DNA of 64,000 bases, from the sequence record MN882542; one strand, 5' to 3'. The notes beneath the pieces were generated by a model. It was given only the letters and a program-made list of their open reading frames with translations. It did no database searches and was not told the DNA's origin. Shown here in pieces: positions 15,530 through 42,148 of the stretch; position 1 is the stretch's first letter, and every line of letters starts with the position of its first letter. Source of the stretch: Escherichia phage JN01. Both the position numbers and the translations under genes were made by a program.

Positions 15530-15605
15530 AGTCCAAGTAGCTTATATGGTTAAAGCGCGTGTCTGAAAAACATGAGAAGAGGGTTCAAATCCCACTGGAC
15601 TACCA
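15530..15605 (+). tRNA. tRNA-Phe (anticodon GAA)
   Basis: Anticodon arm CGTGT-CTGAAAA-ACATG; T-loop GGGTTCAAATCCC; CCA encoded. Confidence 0.65.
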
Positions 15606-15621
15606 ATTTCAAAGGTGCTTA

Positions 15622-16356
15622 ATGAAAGAGATGACAGAACAAGGTAAGGAGATTTTTAGTCTCTTAAAAACCGGTAGAGGGTTTTCTAATCCCCTTATTA
15701 CTGGTGCAGCAGTTCTCGGTGGAACCGTAGCTGCCTCTACATCACTTGTAAGCTCTATTAGCTCTGTAGCAGACCCTACAATAAAGGATAAACTTGTTGC
15801 TGCTGGACTTACAACAGTTCTGCTTAATAGCTTTACAACGAGTCTGACAAGCACTACATCAACTACTAAGACACTGACAGATTACGGTCAAAAGTCCATT
15901 GATGAGTTTTCATCACGTATGCAGGTAGCAAAAGGGTATTCCAATGTTATGGGTGCAGCAGGAGAGCAAGTTGGTTGTACACCATTTAGTGGTATTATGG
16001 GTGTTGCTACAGAGTACGGTCAAAAAGCTATTGACACAATTAACAGTACACTAGACGGTGTTAATGATGTATTAAGTGACTTACAAGATGCTATTGATAA
16101 AGGTCTTGATACTGTTTCTGATTTAGCTAACCAAGCTGTTAGCAAGATTAATGAAGGTATCTCGAAGATTACAGCTTATGCAGATGAAGTTGTGCAGATG
16201 ATTGAAGAAGAAGCTGCCCTTATTGCAGAGTACCTTAAAACGAATATCAATGGGTTCTTAGCAGGTATCTTACCAGACTGGTTTGATGATGCTTGTAAAA
16301 CTGGTGTAATTGATACTATTGCAACACCAGAAATGAAGAACGCATTACAGAAATAA
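15622..16356 (+). CDS. hypothetical Ser/Thr-rich protein with N-terminal hydrophobic segment, flanked by tRNAs
   Basis: Track start overlaps tRNA-Phe, so start moved to ATG 15622; stop abuts tRNA-Ser; hydrophobic LITGAAVLGGTVAASTSLV. Confidence 0.5.
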   Translation: MKEMTEQGKEIFSLLKTGRGFSNPLITGAAVLGGTVAASTSLVSSISSVADPTIKDKLVAAGLTTVLLNSFTTSLTSTTSTTKTLTDYGQKSIDEFSSRMQVAKGYSNVMGAAGEQVGCTPFSGIMGVATEYGQKAIDTINSTLDGVNDVLSDLQDAIDKGLDTVSDLANQAVSKINEGISKITAYADEVVQMIEEEAALIAEYLKTNINGFLAGILPDWFDDACKTGVIDTIATPEMKNALQK

Positions 16357-16357
16357 T

Positions 16358-16450
16358 GGAAGATTAACCCTAAAAGGTAAGGGAGCAGTTTGCTAAACTG
16401 CCAGTAGCTGAGAAATCGGTGTACCAGTTCAAGTCTGGTATCTTCCTCCA
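16358..16450 (+). tRNA. tRNA-Ser (anticodon GCT), long variable arm
   Basis: 93 nt; perfect acceptor GGAAGAT/ATCTTCC; anticodon arm GCAGT-TTGCTAA-ACTGC; CCA encoded. Confidence 0.75.
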
Positions 16451-16454
16451 ATTT

Positions 16455-16530
16455 GAATCCGTGACAGAAATGGCTATGTACCTGTCTGCAAAACAGGTTT
16501 ATAAGGGTTCGAGTCCCTTCGGATTCTCCA
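16455..16530 (+). tRNA. tRNA-Cys (anticodon GCA)
   Basis: Perfect acceptor GAATCCG/CGGATTC; perfect anticodon stem CCTGT/ACAGG with loop CTGCAAA; CCA encoded. Confidence 0.8.
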
Positions 16531-35089: not shown

Positions 35090-35944
35090 ATGTTTGAAAA
35101 GATTGATAGTGTTTATTACAAAACACTTGATGAACGAACTGTAACACAGTTTAAAGATAAGTTTATCTACACAAGCATCTTGAAAGCAATCACTGATGAG
35201 TTACAAACACTAGAGGATGTTTGCTGGCAGATGCACACAGAGAGAAATATCAGGACATCAGTAGGTCAACAACTTGATAATATTGGCTCACTGATTAAAG
35301 TTCCTAGACCTTTAGGTGCTGATGATGAAACATATAGAGCTATGCTTTATATCCAAATCTTCCTAAGACGCTCTGACACTACTCCAACATTCTTGCAAAA
35401 AGCAATTATGACACTGTATGGTGCAACTTTCTCTCAGATTTTTGAGCATATTACTCCTAAGACTGGTGGTATCGTTATCCGTATCAACACTAGGAAAAGC
35501 GTTCTAGATGCTGCATATACACTGTCAAAGATTTCTGCAACAACTACTGGTTCTGCTGTTATCTTAAGAGATGTTACTTTAAAAGGAACTGCTTGGACAC
35601 CTGTAGAGGTTGCTGATTCAGCACTTGCTATTGTTGATGATAAAGAGAACTGGTTCGTAACTGATGCTAACAGGGGTCTTGTTACAAATAACACTGGTGG
35701 CTCTCTGGAGTCCAACCTAGTAGGGAGTCTTGCAGATGCTGGTGTTATTGATGGTTACTTTAAGGTTGACAGAACAGCAAACTCACAGAGTGATGATTAC
35801 ATGACTGTAGATAGGTCTAATAATAGTGGATATTTCATCGTTGGTAAAGAAGCTGTTGCAGGTGGTGCATACGGAATCATGGCTGAGGTTGCACAAATTG
35901 TCAAAGGCAGAAAAGATAAATCACAACAAGAAGGAAATTCTTAA
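35090..35944 (+). CDS. baseplate or tail fibre attachment protein (putative)
   Basis: 284 aa ORF with ATG start, in structural operon context. Confidence 0.45.
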
Positions 35945-36246
35945 TGGCAGTTTTAAATTGGTCTACAAATGAAGTGGATACTGATGGTAATCAGTTAAAA
36001 GTTTTACCACCACCGGAAATTCAAGAGACAGGTCTTTTAAAGGGTGAGCCTATGGGTAGACAGTGGTTCAACTATATTATCAACTACCTGCTGAATAAAG
36101 TAAACGGCACTGTTGGGGAAGTTCGCTCATATGCAACTGAGCAACCAGATTTAGTGGCTAATGGCTGGAATCTAATTAAGTCTGAGACAGGGACTGCATC
36201 AACAAGCACAAGAAACCTTTACACATATGAATATGTAGGAGCTTAA
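35944..36246 (+). CDS. hypothetical tail protein
   Basis: 100 aa; TAATG coupling. Confidence 0.45.
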
Positions 36247-36248
36247 TA

Positions 36249-37424
36249 ATGGCAGTAGGTGAAATTCAAATTAGTGCCTTGCCACAAGCGGCCTTACCAA
36301 TTGATTTGAGTGATATCTTCCATCTTAAGCAAGGTGTTGAGGATAAAAGATGTACGCTTGAACAGTTGTTAGCACCTCACACATCTTTGAGGAATAACCC
36401 TCATGGTGTAACTAAATCGCAAGTTGGTCTTGATAATGTTATTAACTCACTCCAATTGGTCGCAGCTAATAACTTGTCAGACATTGTAGATGTTGCTGAG
36501 GCAAGAGCAAATCTACAGATTATGTCGTCAGATGAAGTGAGCAGTTTAATTCAGAGACATATCGACGACAAAAGTAACCCACACAACACAACGAAAGCAC
36601 AGGTTGGTTTAAGTAATGTTCAGAACTGGACAACATCCAACCTGTACAATGAAGATGCTGATAAATATGCTACCGCGAGAGCAGTGAATAATCTATACAA
36701 AGCTATCCAAGCATCATATCCAGTGGGGACTATTCATCTGTCTGTTAACTCTGCTAACCCATCCACTTACTTGCTTTGTGGAGGTACTTGGGAGTTGGTT
36801 TCTAAAGGTAGGGCGCTTGTTGGTTATGATACAGAAGCTAGACCTGTTGGTTCAACGTTCGGTTCTCAGACTGTAGCATTAACAAATAATAATTTACCAG
36901 CACACACCCACTCTATCTATTTAACAGGTGGTGGTCACACACACTCTGCAAGCGTATCTATCTCTAGTTTTGATTATGGTTCAAAAAGTACATCAACTTT
37001 TGATTACGGTACAAAAACGACTAATAGTGCTGGTGCTCACACTCACACGTTTAGCGGCACGACAAGTAATGATGGTAACCATAACCATAGAGTACCACTG
37101 AGAGGTAATGATAGAAGTGGGGGGGATGCTATTACTGCATCTGCTTATGCTGGGGTTAATAATAATACGTATACTGATTTAGCAGGTGCTCACACCCATA
37201 GCTTCTCAGGCACAACTGCATCATCTGGTGCTCATAACCATACTGTTGCAATTGGTGCTCATAGCCACACTGTTAATATTGGTTCACACAGTCATACGGG
37301 TACTGTTACTGTCTCTAGCTCTGAACATACACACTCAGGAACATCTGGTTCTGTTGGTGGTGGTCAAGCTTTCAGTGTTGAACAGCCATCTTTTGTACTA
37401 TATGTATGGCAGAGAACAGCTTAA
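36249..37424 (+). CDS. tail fibre protein with phage fibre repeats and His-rich C-terminal tip
   Basis: Repeats NPHGVTKSQVGLDNV and NPHNTTKAQVGLSNV; C-terminal HTHS/HNHT motifs; C-terminus homologous to the next gene. Confidence 0.7.
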   Translation: MAVGEIQISALPQAALPIDLSDIFHLKQGVEDKRCTLEQLLAPHTSLRNNPHGVTKSQVGLDNVINSLQLVAANNLSDIVDVAEARANLQIMSSDEVSSLIQRHIDDKSNPHNTTKAQVGLSNVQNWTTSNLYNEDADKYATARAVNNLYKAIQASYPVGTIHLSVNSANPSTYLLCGGTWELVSKGRALVGYDTEARPVGSTFGSQTVALTNNNLPAHTHSIYLTGGGHTHSASVSISSFDYGSKSTSTFDYGTKTTNSAGAHTHTFSGTTSNDGNHNHRVPLRGNDRSGGDAITASAYAGVNNNTYTDLAGAHTHSFSGTTASSGAHNHTVAIGAHSHTVNIGSHSHTGTVTVSSSEHTHSGTSGSVGGGQAFSVEQPSFVLYVWQRTA

Positions 37425-37470
37425 TTTCTTTACAGGGGCTTTATAGCCCCTTTTAAGAGGAAAATTTATA

Positions 37471-40020
37471 ATGGCAGATTACAAATTGAGTCAATTAAAC
37501 TCAATAGACACAATTCGTTCAGAAGACCTATTGCACATCAGAGTTAAGAAAAGACCTGAAATGTTGGGTGACGAAGACCGTAGAATGACCTATCAAGACT
37601 TCTTAGCTTCCTTCAAACTAGAAAGGTTTGTTCAGATTGCTGGGAGCACTATGATTGGGGATTTAGGTATTGTCAAGTTACTTTACGGTGGCAAGGCTGT
37701 ATTTGACCCAACAGGCTCTTCTGAGATTACTATTGGGGATGTTTTAAAGACTTTTAAACTTAACGCAAATGGTCTTAAACTCACTATTGCAGATGCTTCA
37801 AGGTCAGCAACTGTTTATCATACTTTGAATAAACCAAGCCCTAATGAACTTGGTATGAGAACTAATGAAGAGAATGATGCAAGATATGCAAGGCTTGCTG
37901 TTACAAACACATTCTCTGGAACTCAGAATATTCAAGGTGATGCTAACTTACTTCGCCTTAGAAACCAAAATGCAAATAATGCACAATACATTGAAGGTGT
38001 AAACCTAGATGGTTCAGCTAGATGGTGGGTTGGTATTGGTAGTAATGGCTCTGACGAAGTAAAACTGTACAATAACAAATACAACTCAGTTTTGACTGTT
38101 GCAAGTAATATCTCTGTTAATAAGTCTTTAGCAATCACTGGACAAGTTCAACCTTCAGATTTCTCTAACTTAGATGCCAGATACTTTACTCAGACAGTTG
38201 CTAATCAGAGATTTGCACAGTTAGCTGCTAATAATAATTTTACTGGAACAAACACGTTTAGTAGAAACCTACTTATTATCAGTGATAGTGCTGCTTTAAG
38301 GTTGAAAAATGCAACATCTAGTTCCCTATTTATTCAGGGAGTTGACTCTCAGAATGCCAACAGATGGTATGTAGGGAATGGTGATAACACCGCCTCTGTG
38401 TTACTACACAACTATGTACATGGTTCAAATATTAGACTTGATAATGGGTATATCTCAGTAAACCAAAATTTCAGAATCACTGGTCAAGTCCAACCTTCAG
38501 ATTGGGCTAATATTGACTCTAGATATATTCCGGCAGCAACTTTGAATACAATTGCAAGAACCAATGCAATGAATACTTTTAATGGTGTGCAGACAGTTGT
38601 TAGTGATAACGAAGGTCTAGTTATTAGAAACTCTACTCAGAGCAAGCCATTATATATTCGTGGTGTGGACACTGCTAATGTATCAAGATGGTGGATTGGT
38701 ATTGGTGGTGCAGATAGTAATAACGTGACACTAAGTAACAGCTTTTCTGGGACTCAGATTTCTCTTGAGTCAACGTTAGTAAGTGTAAATAAGAATCTGT
38801 ATATCAATGGTCAGGTTCAACCACAAGACTGGACTAATATTGATGGGAGATACTATAACAAATCATCTGCTGATAGCAGATACCTGAGAATCAGAAGCAC
38901 TGGATTTAACAATGTTAATGGGAATAAATGGGCTAAGATTGCTACTGTCACCATGCCACAAGGAACATCAACAGCAGTAATTGAACTATTTGGTGGTGCT
39001 GGTTTCAACTATGGTATATATAACCAAGCCTGTAAAACAGAAATTGTTCTTAGTACAGGGAATGGTAAACCAAAAGGCTTAAATGTTGTTGCATGGAAAA
39101 ACGCACCGAATGATGTTGTAGGCCAAGTTGGTTATGTTAATACCTCTGGTGATAATTATGACATTTATTGCTATGTTGGTGGTTATCAAAATGCTACGAC
39201 AGCTAGGGTTCAGTCCTCAGATAATGCAACAGTACAACTGTTTGCATCCCCAGAGACATACGATAATGCTCCAGATGACTATGTTGCTGGGACAATTGCT
39301 TATTATTATACTAGTCTCTTGAAACCAACACCTACAGATATTGGTGCATACACTAAAGCTGAAACTGACCAGAAAATTGCAGAAGCAATTAGTGACTCTA
39401 CAGACCTGAATAAAATCTACCCAGTAGGTATTGTAACGTGGTTTAACAGTAATGTTAACCCTAATACAGCACTTCCTGGTCTAACTTGGACGTACCTGAA
39501 TAATGGTGTTGGTAGAACTATTAGAATTGCAGCAGCAAACGGTTCAGATGTTGCTACAACTGGTGGTTCAGATTCTGTAACGCTATCTGTTGGTAACTTA
39601 CCTTCACACACACATAGTTTCTCTGCTACCACTTCATCATTTGATTATGGTACTAAGACGACAAATACGACTGGCAACCATGCTCACGATAGAGGTAACA
39701 TGGAAATTTCTGGTGTGGTTGGTTGGTTCAGAAGTGATAACAGTGCATTCTACACTGCGAGCGGTGCGTTTCAGATGGGTAGTTCTCAGGCTTCACATGG
39801 CTTCACAGGCTCTCACTTCACTTACGGTGCTGCTGCTGATTTCCGCGCGTCAAGAACTTGGACAGGTGTAACCAACACAACTGGCAACCACGCGCACAGC
39901 GTTGGCATTGGTTCTCACAACCACACAGTTAGCGGTAACACTGGTGGTACAGGTTCTGGTTCAGCATTTAGCGTCACTAACCAGTTCTACAAGTTAATGG
40001 CTTGGGTAAGGACTGCTTAA
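37471..40020 (+). CDS. large tail fibre protein with three internal repeats and His-rich C-terminal tip
   Basis: 849 aa; three copies of an about 113 aa unit (ITGQVQPSD...RY); C-terminus paralogous to the 36249 fibre. Confidence 0.75.
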   Translation: MADYKLSQLNSIDTIRSEDLLHIRVKKRPEMLGDEDRRMTYQDFLASFKLERFVQIAGSTMIGDLGIVKLLYGGKAVFDPTGSSEITIGDVLKTFKLNANGLKLTIADASRSATVYHTLNKPSPNELGMRTNEENDARYARLAVTNTFSGTQNIQGDANLLRLRNQNANNAQYIEGVNLDGSARWWVGIGSNGSDEVKLYNNKYNSVLTVASNISVNKSLAITGQVQPSDFSNLDARYFTQTVANQRFAQLAANNNFTGTNTFSRNLLIISDSAALRLKNATSSSLFIQGVDSQNANRWYVGNGDNTASVLLHNYVHGSNIRLDNGYISVNQNFRITGQVQPSDWANIDSRYIPAATLNTIARTNAMNTFNGVQTVVSDNEGLVIRNSTQSKPLYIRGVDTANVSRWWIGIGGADSNNVTLSNSFSGTQISLESTLVSVNKNLYINGQVQPQDWTNIDGRYYNKSSADSRYLRIRSTGFNNVNGNKWAKIATVTMPQGTSTAVIELFGGAGFNYGIYNQACKTEIVLSTGNGKPKGLNVVAWKNAPNDVVGQVGYVNTSGDNYDIYCYVGGYQNATTARVQSSDNATVQLFASPETYDNAPDDYVAGTIAYYYTSLLKPTPTDIGAYTKAETDQKIAEAISDSTDLNKIYPVGIVTWFNSNVNPNTALPGLTWTYLNNGVGRTIRIAAANGSDVATTGGSDSVTLSVGNLPSHTHSFSATTSSFDYGTKTTNTTGNHAHDRGNMEISGVVGWFRSDNSAFYTASGAFQMGSSQASHGFTGSHFTYGAAADFRASRTWTGVTNTTGNHAHSVGIGSHNHTVSGNTGGTGSGSAFSVTNQFYKLMAWVRTA

Positions 40021-40099: not shown

Positions 40100-40297
40100 A
40101 TGCCTACAATCCTAGCAATTCTTCTAAAAAATCTAGGTAGCTTCTTCTGGAAACTCATTTTATCCCTTCTAAGTGAATACATGATTGAGAAAGTGTTCTT
40201 TAGGCTTGCAAGATACCTTGCGAGTAAAACAGACACACCTATCGATGATGAGTTCGTAGATAACTTAGAAAAAGCTTTTAAGGGGGAGAATAAATGA
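40100..40297 (+). CDS. small membrane protein (holin-like candidate)
   Basis: 65 aa; hydrophobic helix ILAILLKNLGSFFWKLILSLL; GAGGTGA Shine-Dalgarno. Confidence 0.45.
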   Translation: MPTILAILLKNLGSFFWKLILSLLSEYMIEKVFFRLARYLASKTDTPIDDEFVDNLEKAFKGENK

Positions 40298-40665
40298 AGT
40301 GGCTAGAGGAAGCTTTTAAAAATAATATTGGTGCAATTGTAGTTGGTATTTTTAGTGTTATTGGGATGTATACCACCATGCAAGTTTCGGAAGGTAAACA
40401 AGAAGTGTCTGTCACAACAAAGTTACAGCAGTTAGATAATTATTCCAAAAGTAATTATTCAGCTATTCGTGATTTACAGTCTGATATGAGGCTGCTTCAG
40501 CTAGGGATGGAGAACCAGAAAGTCCAGTTAGAGAATGTTAAGGGTGAGAACGCAAAACTTACCAAAACCCTTGATAAATTCTCTGATAGCGTGAACAATC
40601 TGGCTCAATCAGTATCAGCCCTCCAAGCTATTACTGAAAAGAACACAAAGAATACTGAAAAGTAA
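40294..40665 (+). CDS. membrane-anchored coiled-coil protein (i-spanin-like or holin-associated candidate)
   Basis: 123 aa; N-terminal helix IGAIVVGIFSVIGMY then coiled-coil region; ATGA overlap with the upstream ORF. Confidence 0.45.
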   Translation: MKWLEEAFKNNIGAIVVGIFSVIGMYTTMQVSEGKQEVSVTTKLQQLDNYSKSNYSAIRDLQSDMRLLQLGMENQKVQLENVKGENAKLTKTLDKFSDSVNNLAQSVSALQAITEKNTKNTEK

Positions 40666-40671
40666 AGTTTA

Positions 40672-40698
40672 AGGCTCCTTTTTACGGGAGCCTTTTTT
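40672..40698. terminator. bidirectional rho-independent terminator between convergent blocks
   Basis: AGGCTCC-N7-GGGAGCCT with A run upstream and T run downstream. Confidence 0.7.
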
Positions 40699-40701
40699 GT
40701 T

Positions 40702-41601
40702 TTATTTACCTACTGATAAAGGTGCTTCAATCTTTCCTGCATGTTGGTAATTATTAATACCACCGATAAAATCACTTGCAGTGAGATGTTTTAAGTCACT
40801 TAAAGTGTTAAGTGGGATACCAATCTCAAAAGTTGGTGCATGGAACTCTTCATTGTTCATCAGTTCATAAACCTGTTTCATATGGTTCTGATAAATCTGA
40901 GTATCTCCAAAGACACCTATCAAGTACCGTGGAGTGTATCCAGTCATCTTACAAAGAACTTCCAGAATAAAACCGTAAGATGCAATATTAAATGGAAGTC
41001 CTAAAAAGGTATCTACTGAACGCTGATACCATTGTAAATCTACTTCACCCTCATTAGTGATATAAATCTGAAACAGAACATGACAAGGTGCTAAAGCCAT
41101 TGAGTTTGCTGCAATATCTGCTGCATTCCAAGCATTAACAAGCATGTAACGGTCTGTGATATCACCCTTCATCTTTGTTACTAAGGTCTCTAACTGGTCT
41201 ACAACACAACCGTTATGGCCTTCAAAGTTTCTCCACTGAACCCCATAGATTCTTCCACCTGCATCTTCTAACCAATCTTGTTCAGAAGAATAGTTAGAGC
41301 TTAACCAGCGTTTAAAATCATCTGACCAGATAGTCCAGCGTTCCCCATCATTTTCACCCCAAGTACGATAACGGAGTTCACCAAGCTTATTCTCACCATT
41401 CAGGAACCATAAAGCTTCCCCAATAACTTGCCGTGTAAACACCTGTTTAGATGTTAAGAGCGGGAAACCAGTTCGCATATCAAAACGAAACTGAGGTGGA
41501 GCAAATGCAGAGATAACATCTCCAGTTCGTGTAGTACGCAGTTCACCAACTGATAAAACATGGTTCAGGATATTTTTGTAACTCAAATCTGCTTGTGACA
41601 T
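40702..41601 (-). CDS. thyA: thymidylate synthase
   Basis: Active-site motif APCH and conserved ThyA blocks (FLNGENKL, WNAADI); 299 aa. Confidence 0.9.
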   Translation of the reverse strand: MSQADLSYKNILNHVLSVGELRTTRTGDVISAFAPPQFRFDMRTGFPLLTSKQVFTRQVIGEALWFLNGENKLGELRYRTWGENDGERWTIWSDDFKRWLSSNYSSEQDWLEDAGGRIYGVQWRNFEGHNGCVVDQLETLVTKMKGDITDRYMLVNAWNAADIAANSMALAPCHVLFQIYITNEGEVDLQWYQRSVDTFLGLPFNIASYGFILEVLCKMTGYTPRYLIGVFGDTQIYQNHMKQVYELMNNEEFHAPTFEIGIPLNTLSDLKHLTASDFIGGINNYQHAGKIEAPLSVGK

Positions 41602-41602
41602 A

Positions 41603-42148
41603 TCAAAAGTGCCCTTTTACTTGTGGAACATAAATTTCAAAAGTTGCTTTACCATCCTCTGATGGTTTTGACTGTACCTTTGTAAATACACGACCATCAT
41701 ACAACTTCTCGAAGAAGTTTTCAAAAGGTAAATGCACAGTGACCTCTTCAGTAACTTTATGGAAAACTGTATGAAACACTACATCAGCATACGGTAAAGC
41801 ATTGACAAGGACACCTGCACCACCAATTACAAAGACATCTTCATCAATAGAGCTATCAAGATACTTCAAAAATGCTCCAAACGACTCTTTACTGGCTTTA
41901 GCATACATTACCTCATCTTTGCCAAAGTCTATGCCTAAGTATGGTACAGAGTTTGTTAAGATGAGGTTTGCACGTTCTGGTAAAGGTTTACTACCCAGAG
42001 TCTTAAAAGTCTCATTCCCCATCACTACTAAGTTATTTTTAGTGAGTCTCTTAAACTCTTGCATGTCCTGTTTATGTCGAGGCCACGGCATACCAGTTGG
42101 AGTACCAAACTCCCCATTTTCACCACTTGCAAAGATTAATTTAATCAT
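41603..42148 (-). CDS. folA: dihydrofolate reductase
   Basis: DHFR N-terminal signature IFASGENGEFGTPTGMPWP and VVMGNETF; 181 aa. Confidence 0.85.
   Translation of the reverse strand: MIKLIFASGENGEFGTPTGMPWPRHKQDMQEFKRLTKNNLVVMGNETFKTLGSKPLPERANLILTNSVPYLGIDFGKDEVMYAKASKESFGAFLKYLDSSIDEDVFVIGGAGVLVNALPYADVVFHTVFHKVTEEVTVHLPFENFFEKLYDGRVFTKVQSKPSEDGKATFEIYVPQVKGHF

What the first reader, a model, noticed from the sequence alone, without database searches (positions are those of the whole stretch)
36249..40020. Two tail fibre genes with a shared C-terminal tip, His-rich motifs and a triple internal repeat
Both fibres end in homologous tips carrying clustered HxH motifs (HTHS, HNHT, HSHT) and a conserved C-terminus ending in RTA. 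Similar motifs coordinate metal ions in the distal tips of T4-type fibres. The long fibre also has three copies of an about 113 aa unit (ITGQVQPSD...RY). Duplicated tips with divergent upstream parts suggest modular receptor-binding exchange and possibly dual receptor specificity.
Basis: partly seen in the sequence, partly recalled or inferred. Interest (0 to 1): 0.5.

Follow-up and report, generated by a model that had tools for sequence, protein, structure and literature searches.

The report
Felix O1-type phage tail fibre pair
These are the short and long tail fibres of a Felix O1-like phage, both ending in a T4 gp37-type histidine-studded receptor-binding tip; the feature is real and correctly read, but this architecture was already published in 2025 for close relatives, so it is ordinary.

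Summary
Two adjacent + strand genes encode a 391-aa short fibre (STF, 36249-37424) and an 849-aa long fibre (LTF, 37471-40020) of a Felixounavirus. Their C-terminal ~230-255 aa are homologous (E about 1e-10). HxH motifs (9 in STF, 4 in LTF) are far beyond chance. The LTF has three repeat units of 109-114 aa (Pfam PF20744 x3). Two corrections apply. First, the tips are not a recent duplication. STF scores higher against T4 gp37, and LTF against a Klebsiella prophage fibre, than they score against each other. Second, the variable part is a segment inside the tip, which in T4 forms the receptor-contacting head, not the conserved RTA terminus. Relatives show independent swapping of each repeat domain, of a central beta-sandwich domain and of the head. 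All of this matches what cryo-EM papers on Bas63 and Sf14 (2025) described for the homologous fibres, so the finding is already known. Only the LTF allele is a new mosaic (82% to the nearest GenBank phage). The receptors, and whether the two fibres bind different ones, remain untested.

The parts
35944..36246 (+). 100-aa long-fibre attachment platform, homologue of Bas63 gp25.
   Evidence: 88% identical to Bas63 gp25 and in the same gene order. PHROG 4141. The role as a gp9-like LTF platform comes from the Bas63 cryo-EM paper, PMC12609058.
36249..37424 (+). Short tail fibre (STF) gene, 391 aa.
   Evidence: ORF. 99.5% identical to the protein of Salmonella phage SP3_SHan-2021. 73% identical to Bas63 gp26. 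PHROG 2097 tail fibre, E=2e-137.
36249..36683 (+). STF N-terminal baseplate-binding region and shaft (aa 1-145). It carries the EDKRCT motif at aa 31 and two copies of NPHxxTKxQVGLxNV at aa 50 and 110.
   Evidence: Motif positions. Nearly identical to Bas63 gp26 over this part. Baseplate binding is taken from PMC12609058 and PMC11821841.
36684..36884 (+). STF collar domain (about aa 146-212), of the T4 gp10/gp37 collar type.
   Evidence: Pfam Gp10_C PF21939 at aa 154-276, 67 bits, above the cut-off of 27. PDB 2FKK gp10 E=4.5e-6, and 2XGF.
36885..37088 (+). STF needle, outgoing strand (about aa 213-280), with 4 HxH motifs and two FDYG motifs.
   Evidence: Alignment to 2XGF. Motif positions.
37089..37184 (+). 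STF head segment (about aa 281-312), the variable and presumed receptor-contacting end.
   Evidence: It lies between the outgoing and returning HxH strands, opposite the T4 gp37 segment between its 3rd and 4th HxH. It is the part that differs from Bas63 gp26.
37185..37421 (+). STF needle, returning strand (aa 313-362, 5 HxH motifs), and conserved C-terminus ending in WQRTA.
   Evidence: C-terminal conservation among relatives.
37433..37458 (+). Conserved intergenic hairpin (AGGGGCT-loop-AGCCCCT, then TTTT), followed by the LTF ribosome-binding site AAGAGGAAAA. Possible partial terminator.
   Evidence: Sequence. Folding energy -16.5 kcal/mol. The stem is identical and only the loop varies in PHB11, wV8 and Bas63. 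The wV8 record annotates a rho-independent terminator here. The consensus scanner did not call it because the T-run is short.
37471..40020 (+). Long tail fibre (LTF) gene, 849 aa.
   Evidence: ORF. PHROG 4277 tail fibre, full length. 56% identical to Bas63 gp27. The best GenBank phage match is 82.4%, KEP2. A near-identical protein occurs in raw-read assemblies.
37471..37839 (+). LTF N-terminal baseplate-binding region (aa 1-123), near-invariant in the genus, with EDRRMT at aa 35.
   Evidence: 90-100% identity windows in all relatives compared. Weak similarity to the STF N-terminus (hhalign P=1.3e-3).
37840..38802 (+). Three tandem repeat units (aa 124-221, 222-335, 336-444). Each is a helical linker (xDxRY...) followed by a trimeric beta domain (PF20744, T7 gp17 pyramid-like).
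   Evidence: PDB 4A0T and 7BOZ (T7 gp17), E about 7e-7. Each unit is replaced independently in relatives. One relative has only two units.
38893..39306 (+). LTF central beta-sandwich domain (about aa 475-612), which has no Pfam family.
39409..39588 (+). LTF collar domain (about aa 647-706), essentially invariant in the genus.
   Evidence: Pfam Gp10_C 24.5 bits, below the cut-off of 27. 98-100% identity windows in relatives. Aligns with the STF and T4 collars.
39589..39687 (+). LTF needle, outgoing strand (aa 707-739), with 2 HxH motifs and one FDYG motif.
39688..39885 (+). LTF head segment (about aa 740-805), 66 aa and hypervariable in the genus.
   Evidence: 12-95% identity windows among relatives. 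Alternative heads are listed. This head type occurs with 4 HxH motifs in 65 of 120 relatives.
39886..40017 (+). LTF needle, returning strand (2 HxH motifs), and conserved C-terminus ending in AWVRTA.

Best explanation
These are the two receptor-binding fibres of a Felix O1-like myovirus (Felixounavirus), homologous to Bas63 gp26/gp27 and Sf14 gp52/gp53. Each is presumably a homotrimer. It attaches to the baseplate by its conserved N-terminus, the STF to a wedge protein and the LTF to the small platform protein encoded just upstream.

Each fibre ends in a T4 gp37-type tip. After a globular collar, the three chains run outward as a beta needle, form a small distal head, and run back, so the C-terminus (…RTA) ends near the collar. 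HxH motifs on the outgoing and returning strands point into the needle core. There, three chains together give six histidines per site and most likely hold a metal ion (Fe2+ in T4), which stiffens the needle. That gives up to 9 sites in the STF and 4 in the LTF.

Host specificity most likely resides in the head segment between the two sets of HxH strands. The LTF shaft is built from three repeated trimeric beta domains joined by conserved helical linkers, followed by a beta-sandwich domain.

The conserved linkers, collar and HxH strands flank variable cassettes. Recombination between related phages can therefore swap repeat domains, the central domain or the head independently, which accounts for the mosaic LTF allele seen here.

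Shown here: the homology, the motif statistics, the domain order and the mosaic pattern. Taken from the published cryo-EM of relatives: trimer state, attachment sites and chain reversal. Inferred: metal binding, the head as the receptor site, and the recombination mechanism.
For: Identity of the phage and synteny. The structural module is 98% identical to phage ZX4221, and the gene order is the same as in Bas63, with gp23, gp25, gp28 and gp29 at 88-100% identity.

Tip homology to a solved structure: STF 146-362 against 2XGF, E=3e-27, with all seven T4 HxH motifs opposite STF HxH motifs. LTF 707-828 against 2XGF, E=2.4e-4, and BLASTP E=3e-10.

Collar: Pfam Gp10_C and PDB gp10 hits.

HxH enrichment: 0 of 20,000 shuffles reach the observed counts.

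Repeats.

Mosaic cassettes with conserved flanks.

Modules shared with unrelated phages: T2 gp37 aa 823-945 and the Klebsiella prophage fibre.

Published cryo-EM description of the homologous fibres, with collar, HxH needle, head, chain reversal, baseplate attachment, and variable tips and repeats: PMC12609058 and PMC11821841.
Against: No experimental atomic model of any Felixounavirus fibre is in the PDB (searches found none). The Bas63 fibre density was too poor for side chains.

My monomer AF2 model of the LTF tip was unusable (pLDDT 45), so the chain reversal and the inward-facing histidines are not shown for this protein.

The LTF collar is below Pfam's cut-off (24.5 bits against 27).

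Metal binding has never been measured in this genus.

No receptor-binding residue has been mapped. The only experimental variants I found lie in the central domain, not in the head.
Confidence: 0.88

Rival explanations
1. Two-step, T4-like division of labour. The LTF makes the first, reversible contact, and the STF then binds a second site irreversibly. On this view the two tips are sequential parts of one adsorption pathway and do not provide two alternative host specificities.
For: In Bas63, LTF occupancy in the retracted position varies from 0 to 6 per virion while the STFs stay in place. The authors suggest T4-like behaviour. The STF is far more conserved than the LTF: 99.5% against 82% to the best GenBank match.
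Against: The STF is not a gp12 homologue. Its tip matches gp37 and its collar matches gp10, and no gp12 hit was found. Both fibres lie folded up along the sheath in Bas63 and Sf14. No adsorption kinetics or receptor data exist for either fibre.
Confidence: 0.4
2. Dual, independent receptor specificity. Each fibre recognises a different surface structure, and either fibre is enough to start infection on the appropriate host, which broadens host range.
For: The two heads are unrelated in sequence and length, 32 aa against 66 aa. Both fibres are present in virions of relatives. Felix O1-type phages are known for broad host ranges, and one paper speculates on more than one receptor.
Against: This has not been tested. 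Relatives depend on the LPS core, with no second receptor identified. This reading and the previous rival are not mutually exclusive.
Confidence: 0.3
3. The shared tips come from a recent duplication of one fibre gene within this phage lineage, followed by divergence of the upstream parts.
For: The genes are adjacent and on the same strand. They are homologous at the C-terminus and share a weak N-terminal motif, EDKRCT and EDRRMT (hhalign P=1.3e-3).
Against: The tips are only 30% identical (47 bits). STF against T4 gp37 gives 96 bits, and LTF against the Klebsiella prophage fibre gives 139 bits. Bas63 shows the same pattern. Any duplication would therefore predate the spread of these tip types among very different phages.
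Confidence: 0.07

Closest known systems
Bas63 (Escherichia phage JohannRWettstein) STF gp26 and LTF gp27; Sf14 gp52 and gp53 (cryo-EM, 2025: PMC12609058, PMC11821841)
   Same: The gene order and domain order are the same: a conserved N-terminal baseplate-binding region; three PF20744 repeats with ITGQVQPSD linkers at the same positions in the LTF; then collar, HxH needle, head and the …WxRTA terminus in both fibres. STF is 73% and LTF 56% identical to Bas63.
   Different: HxH numbers differ: 9 and 4 here against 7 and 6 in Bas63. The head segments are different. The LTF central domain is a beta-sandwich of about 140 aa here, whereas Bas63 has the shorter PF12604 domain.
T4 long tail fibre distal tip, gp37 residues 785-1026 (PDB 2XGF)
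   Same: Collar, six-stranded needle with HxH motifs, a head in the middle of the tip sequence, and a C-terminus ending R-x-A. STF aligns at E=3e-27 with the seven T4 HxH motifs matched.
   Different: Here the tip sits directly on a short, single-protein fibre bound to a simple Mu-like baseplate, not on a four-protein kinked fibre. STF has two extra HxH motifs, and LTF has only four, with a larger head. No gp38-like gene follows, and the two small downstream ORFs belong to PHROGs of unknown function. The Sf14 authors also report finding no Mu-type fibre chaperone homologues.
T7 gp17 pyramid domain (PDB 4A0T, 7BOZ) / Pfam PF20744 gp37_trimer
   Same: The LTF repeat core (for example aa 250-348) aligns with gp17 residues 348-445, E about 7e-7. 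PF20744 hits three times.
   Different: The domain is present in three tandem copies as a shaft element and is not followed by a T7-type tip domain.
T2-type gp37 shaft module, and the tailspike-like WceF (PDB 6TGF)
   Different: I found no described function for this domain in any of these proteins. Here it sits between the repeats and the collar.
Klebsiella temperate myovirus fibre (ST16-OXA48phi5.2, 257 aa)
   Same: The tip is 41% identical to the LTF tip (E=1.5e-42), ends in WYRSA, and is encoded behind a Baseplate_J-DUF2612 gene pair as here.
   Different: It has no repeat shaft, a smaller head, and its first HxH is replaced (AQALS).

Membership tests
T4 gp37-type receptor-binding tip (collar-needle-head, PDB 2XGF) | Significant sequence similarity to the solved tip | tested here: met
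   STF E=3e-27. LTF E=2.4e-4 by phmmer and E=3e-10 by BLASTP of the excised tips.
T4 gp37-type receptor-binding tip (collar-needle-head, PDB 2XGF) | gp10/gp12-like collar domain directly before the needle | tested here: met
   STF: Pfam Gp10_C 67 bits, above the cut-off of 27, and PDB gp10 E=4.5e-6. LTF alone scores 24.5 bits, just under the cut-off, but it aligns with the STF and T4 collars.
T4 gp37-type receptor-binding tip (collar-needle-head, PDB 2XGF) | HxH motifs on both an outgoing and a returning strand, flanking a head insert | tested here: met
   STF has 4 + 5 and LTF has 2 + 2. This is beyond chance. The STF motifs are in register with the T4 motifs.
T4 gp37-type receptor-binding tip (collar-needle-head, PDB 2XGF) | Octahedral metal (Fe2+) sites formed by six histidines from three chains | not testable with these tools
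   This needs a trimer structure or metal analysis. It is inferred from homology only.
T4 gp37-type receptor-binding tip (collar-needle-head, PDB 2XGF) | Intertwined homotrimer with chain reversal at the head | tested here: inconclusive
   The monomer AF2 model of the LTF tip has pLDDT 45 and is unusable. The feature is reported for Bas63 homologues from low-resolution density plus AlphaFold.
T4 gp37-type receptor-binding tip (collar-needle-head, PDB 2XGF) | Dependence on dedicated chaperones (gp38, gp57A) | not tested
   The two ORFs after the LTF gene hit only PHROGs of unknown function. The whole window was not scanned for gp57A-like genes.
Felixounavirus STF/LTF pair (Bas63 gp26/gp27) | Gene order wedge 2 - wedge 1 - platform - STF - LTF - two small ORFs - td/frd on the opposite strand | tested here: met
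Felixounavirus STF/LTF pair (Bas63 gp26/gp27) | Full-length similarity, with conserved N-termini, linkers, collar and C-terminus | tested here: met
   73% (STF) and 56% (LTF) identity over the full length.
PF20744 gp37_trimer / T7 gp17 pyramid-like repeat | Match above Pfam's gathering score | tested here: met
   251 bits against a cut-off of 21.7, in three stretches.
T4 short tail fibre gp12 | Sequence similarity of the STF to gp12 | tested here: not met
   The PDB search returned gp37 and gp10 but no gp12 chain at E<=0.01. The name 'short tail fibre' reflects length, not gp12 homology.

The most novel reading that the evidence does not exclude
The LTF central beta-sandwich domain (aa ~475-612, window 38893-39306) may be a second, lateral glycan-binding site and not an inert shaft bead. 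The virion would then carry three exchangeable recognition modules: the STF head, the LTF head and the LTF mid-fibre domain. The pointers are as follows. It swaps as a cassette independently of the tip. Its fold resembles domains of polysaccharide-acting tailspike-like proteins and, weakly, galectins and CBMs. In another Felixounavirus, variants at aa 497 and 534 of the alternative (PF12604) cassette at this position rose in frequency under host challenge, though at very low read depth.
Probability: 0.2. Interest if true: 0.4.

Novelty: already known. Interest (0 to 1): 0.15.

Why it matters
For this window it gives a correct, domain-level annotation of two genes that many GenBank records still call hypothetical. 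It also gives a map of where host-range cassettes begin and end, which is useful for engineering Felix O1-type phages used in Salmonella and E. coli O157 typing and biocontrol. It adds nothing conceptually new: the shared gp37-like HxH tips, the repeat shaft and their hypervariability were published for Bas63 and Sf14 in 2025. The open questions are which receptor each fibre binds, whether the needles hold metal, and how these fibres fold without a known chaperone. Sequence analysis does not bring them closer to an answer.

Tried and rejected
1. BLASTP of the LTF against itself returned only the diagonal. Splitting the protein into fragments was needed to show the repeats.

2. The AF2 monomer prediction of the LTF tip (aa 623-849) gave pLDDT 45. 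I did not use it for fold search or for any structural claim.

3. The consensus terminator scan did not call the intergenic hairpin. I kept it only as a possible partial terminator, on the basis of its conservation.

4. Profile-profile comparison of the two N-termini gave P=1.3e-3 and 18% probability. This is too weak to claim homology, partly because the LTF N-termini have no diversity (Neff 1.0).

5. I considered the overlapping ORFs inside the fibre genes (for example 37186..37446 on the + strand and 39417..39632 on the - strand). I dismissed them as frame artefacts of the real genes, because the full-length fibre ORFs have strong homologues.

6. The T4 gp37 tip paper and the T4 fibre review are not held in the paper library. 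Statements about T4 therefore rest on the 2XGF alignment, on the summary in PMC12609058 and on general knowledge.

7. Several guesses were needed to find the Bas63 accession. The records hit on the way are irrelevant.
Full report
**What is there.** The window comes from a Felix O1-like myovirus (genus Felixounavirus). The fibre region matches 249 phage records, almost all of them Escherichia, Salmonella or Shigella Felixounavirus. The 22 kb of structural genes upstream are 98% identical to phages such as ZX4221 and SME50. Gene order matches phage Bas63 (MZ501086): wedge 2 (Baseplate_J), wedge 1, a 100-aa platform protein, STF, LTF, two small ORFs, then thymidylate synthase and dihydrofolate reductase on the other strand. 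Identities to Bas63 are 95% for gp23, 84% for gp24, 88% for gp25, 73% for the STF, 56% for the LTF, and 98-100% for the two small ORFs.

**Checking the observation.** Every element holds.
- The two proteins align over STF 136-391 and LTF 623-849 at E=1e-10. The excised tips give E=3.6e-11.
- The STF has nine HxH motifs and the LTF four. Shuffling the residues gives means of 1.4 and 0.22, and none of 20,000 shuffles reaches the observed count.
- Both proteins end in W-x-RTA, and 118 of 120 LTF relatives end in AWVRTA.
- The LTF has three repeat units. The I(T/N)GQVQP linker recurs at aa 222, 336 and 445, a spacing of 114 and 109 aa. The cores match pairwise at E=8e-12 to 4e-24, and Pfam PF20744 hits three times at E=4.5e-76.
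- One correction of register: the stretch after the third linker is not a fourth repeat. It leads into another domain.

**Anatomy of the tips.** The STF's C-terminal half is a plain sequence homologue of the crystallised T4 gp37 tip (2XGF). The match is E=3e-27 over STF 146-362, and each of the seven T4 HxH motifs lies opposite an STF HxH. It is preceded by a gp10-type collar (Pfam Gp10_C, 67 bits; PDB 2FKK, E=4.5e-6). The LTF tip matches 2XGF more weakly, at E=2.4e-4 and BLASTP E=3e-10.

As summarised in the Bas63 paper, the gp37 chain leaves the collar, runs out as needle strands, forms the head, and returns to the collar. HxH motifs from three chains coordinate iron ions along the needle axis. 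Mapped onto these proteins:
- The STF has four outgoing and five returning HxH motifs around a head of about 32 aa (aa 281-312).
- The LTF has two outgoing and two returning HxH motifs around a head of about 66 aa (aa 740-805).

The conserved RTA terminus is therefore expected to lie back near the collar, not at the receptor end.

I could not confirm this fold directly. A monomer AlphaFold2 model of the LTF tip was unusable (pLDDT 45), as expected for an intertwined trimer.

**Anatomy of the LTF shaft.** After a near-invariant N-terminal region (aa 1-123) come the three repeat units. Each is a helical linker followed by a beta domain that also matches the pyramid-domain region of T7 gp17 (4A0T and 7BOZ, E about 7e-7).

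Then comes a domain (about aa 475-612) with no Pfam family.
- Its AlphaFold2 model has a confident all-beta core (pLDDT 70-93).
- By sequence it is 42% identical to T2 gp37 residues 823-945 of 1341, so it is a shaft module there, not a tip.

A short helical linker then leads to the collar.

**Mosaicism.** The STF is 99.5% identical to a known phage protein. The best LTF match in GenBank phages is only 82%. The protein-cluster search lists a representative at 100% (rounded), found only in raw-read assemblies, which differs from the window at one or more residues in the tip. The next closest is 88%.

Windowed identities against 16 relatives show a clear cassette pattern.
- Conserved: aa 1-120, the collar (641-720) and the last 50 aa stay at 90-100%.
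- Variable: repeat 1, repeat 2, repeat 3, the central domain and the head each drop to 0-35% independently in different relatives.

Some relatives, including PHB11 and Bas63, carry PF12604 in place of the beta-sandwich. One metagenomic protein (P0075, 740 aa) has only two repeats. Among 120 relatives, 65 have the 4-HxH tip seen here and 53 have 6-HxH tips with other heads.

It also fits the idea from T-even phages, which I am citing from general knowledge and did not check here, that conserved motifs flanking variable segments act as recombination points.

**Are the tips 'duplicated'?** Not recently. On one BLASTP scale the STF tip scores 96 bits against T4 gp37, and the LTF tip scores 139 bits against a 257-aa fibre of a Klebsiella temperate myovirus. 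They score only 47 bits against each other. The Bas63 pair behaves the same way.

The N-termini share a short motif, EDKRCT in the STF and EDRRMT in the LTF, which was already noted for Sf14. The profile comparison is only suggestive, at P=1.3e-3.

**What is already known.** Two cryo-EM papers from 2025 describe the homologous fibres.
- For Sf14 (PMC11821841): two fibres of 430 and 630 Å folded along the sheath, with T7 gp17-like, gp10-C-like and gp37-like parts. The authors report no Mu-type fibre chaperone homologues in the genome.
- For Bas63 (PMC12609058): both fibres have a gp37-like tip with collar, HxH needle and head. The paper counts 7 and 6 motifs. It also reports a repeat shaft resembling the T4 gp34 rod region, attachment of the LTF to the gp25 platform and of the STF to wedge 2A, variable LTF occupancy, and hypervariable tips and repeats across the genus.

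The finding therefore restates published knowledge. The differences here are matters of degree: 9 and 4 HxH motifs, a larger LTF head, and the beta-sandwich version of the central domain. These variants are themselves common among relatives such as wV8, HY02 and ZX4221.

**Function.** The best-supported reading is that both fibres are trimeric receptor-binding proteins, stiffened by metal-binding HxH needles, with specificity residing in the heads. Relatives depend on the LPS core. The STF is not a gp12 homologue.

One pointer leads away from the head. In a Salmonella Infantis challenge experiment, variants at aa 497 and 534 of the LTF homologue rose in frequency. These positions lie in the PF12604 central domain. 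Read depth was only 5-6 reads.

**Verdict.** The feature is real and correctly recognised. Its interpretation needs two corrections: the tips are not a recent duplication, and the receptor end is not the C-terminus. The architecture is already described in the literature. Interest is low.

Noticed in passing
window 37433-37458: A GC-rich hairpin (AGGGGCT / AGCCCCT, about -16.5 kcal/mol) with a short T-run lies between the STF stop codon and the LTF ribosome-binding site. The stem is identical and only the loop differs in PHB11, wV8 and Bas63. The wV8 record calls it a terminator. If it terminates some transcripts, it could lower LTF expression relative to STF, which would fit the sub-stoichiometric LTF occupancy reported for Bas63.
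   Followed up: partly
window 36396-36440 and 36576-36620 (STF aa 50-64 and 110-124): The STF shaft holds two copies of a 15-aa motif, NPHGVTKSQVGLDNV and NPHNTTKAQVGLSNV, 60 aa apart. This N-terminal part of the STF also gives tblastn hits to structural proteins of jumbo Pseudomonas, Erwinia and Salmonella phages.
   Followed up: partly
P0075 (metagenomic LTF relative, 740 aa), compared with window 38476-38802: This relative has two PF20744 repeats where the window's LTF has three, and it is exactly one unit (109 aa) shorter. So repeat number does vary in nature. The Bas63 paper found no such variation among the ICTV-recognised species.
   Followed up: partly
L010 (Klebsiella phage ST16-OXA48phi5.2) 2240-3013: A 257-aa protein of a temperate Klebsiella myovirus carries an LTF-type tip (41% identity, ending in WYRSA). 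It is encoded directly after a Baseplate_J gene and a DUF2612 gene, the same arrangement as in the window. A 658-aa protein follows it. This suggests the two-fibre layout on a simple baseplate is wider than Ounavirinae.
   Followed up: partly
window 10875-16530: A cluster of 25 tRNA genes on the + strand covers 19 of the 20 amino acids (no tRNA-Trp was called). It includes two tRNA-Met, three tRNA-Leu and two each of Lys, Gln and Ser.
   Followed up: no
window 40100-40297 and 40294-40665: Two small ORFs lie directly after the LTF gene. One (65 aa) has a hydrophobic N-terminus. The other (123 aa) has a hydrophobic N-terminal segment and a weak Pfam DivIC match (aa 72-111). They are 100% and 98% identical to Bas63 gp28 and gp29, match only PHROGs of unknown function, and are annotated as holin in some records. 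A strong terminator-like hairpin follows at 40671-40694. Their position would also suit a fibre assembly factor. This was not tested.
   Followed up: partly
window ~40000 and ~50000: GC skew changes sign at about 40 kb and again at about 50 kb. The first change coincides with the switch from + strand structural genes to - strand nucleotide-metabolism and replication genes (td and frd at 40702-42148).
   Followed up: no
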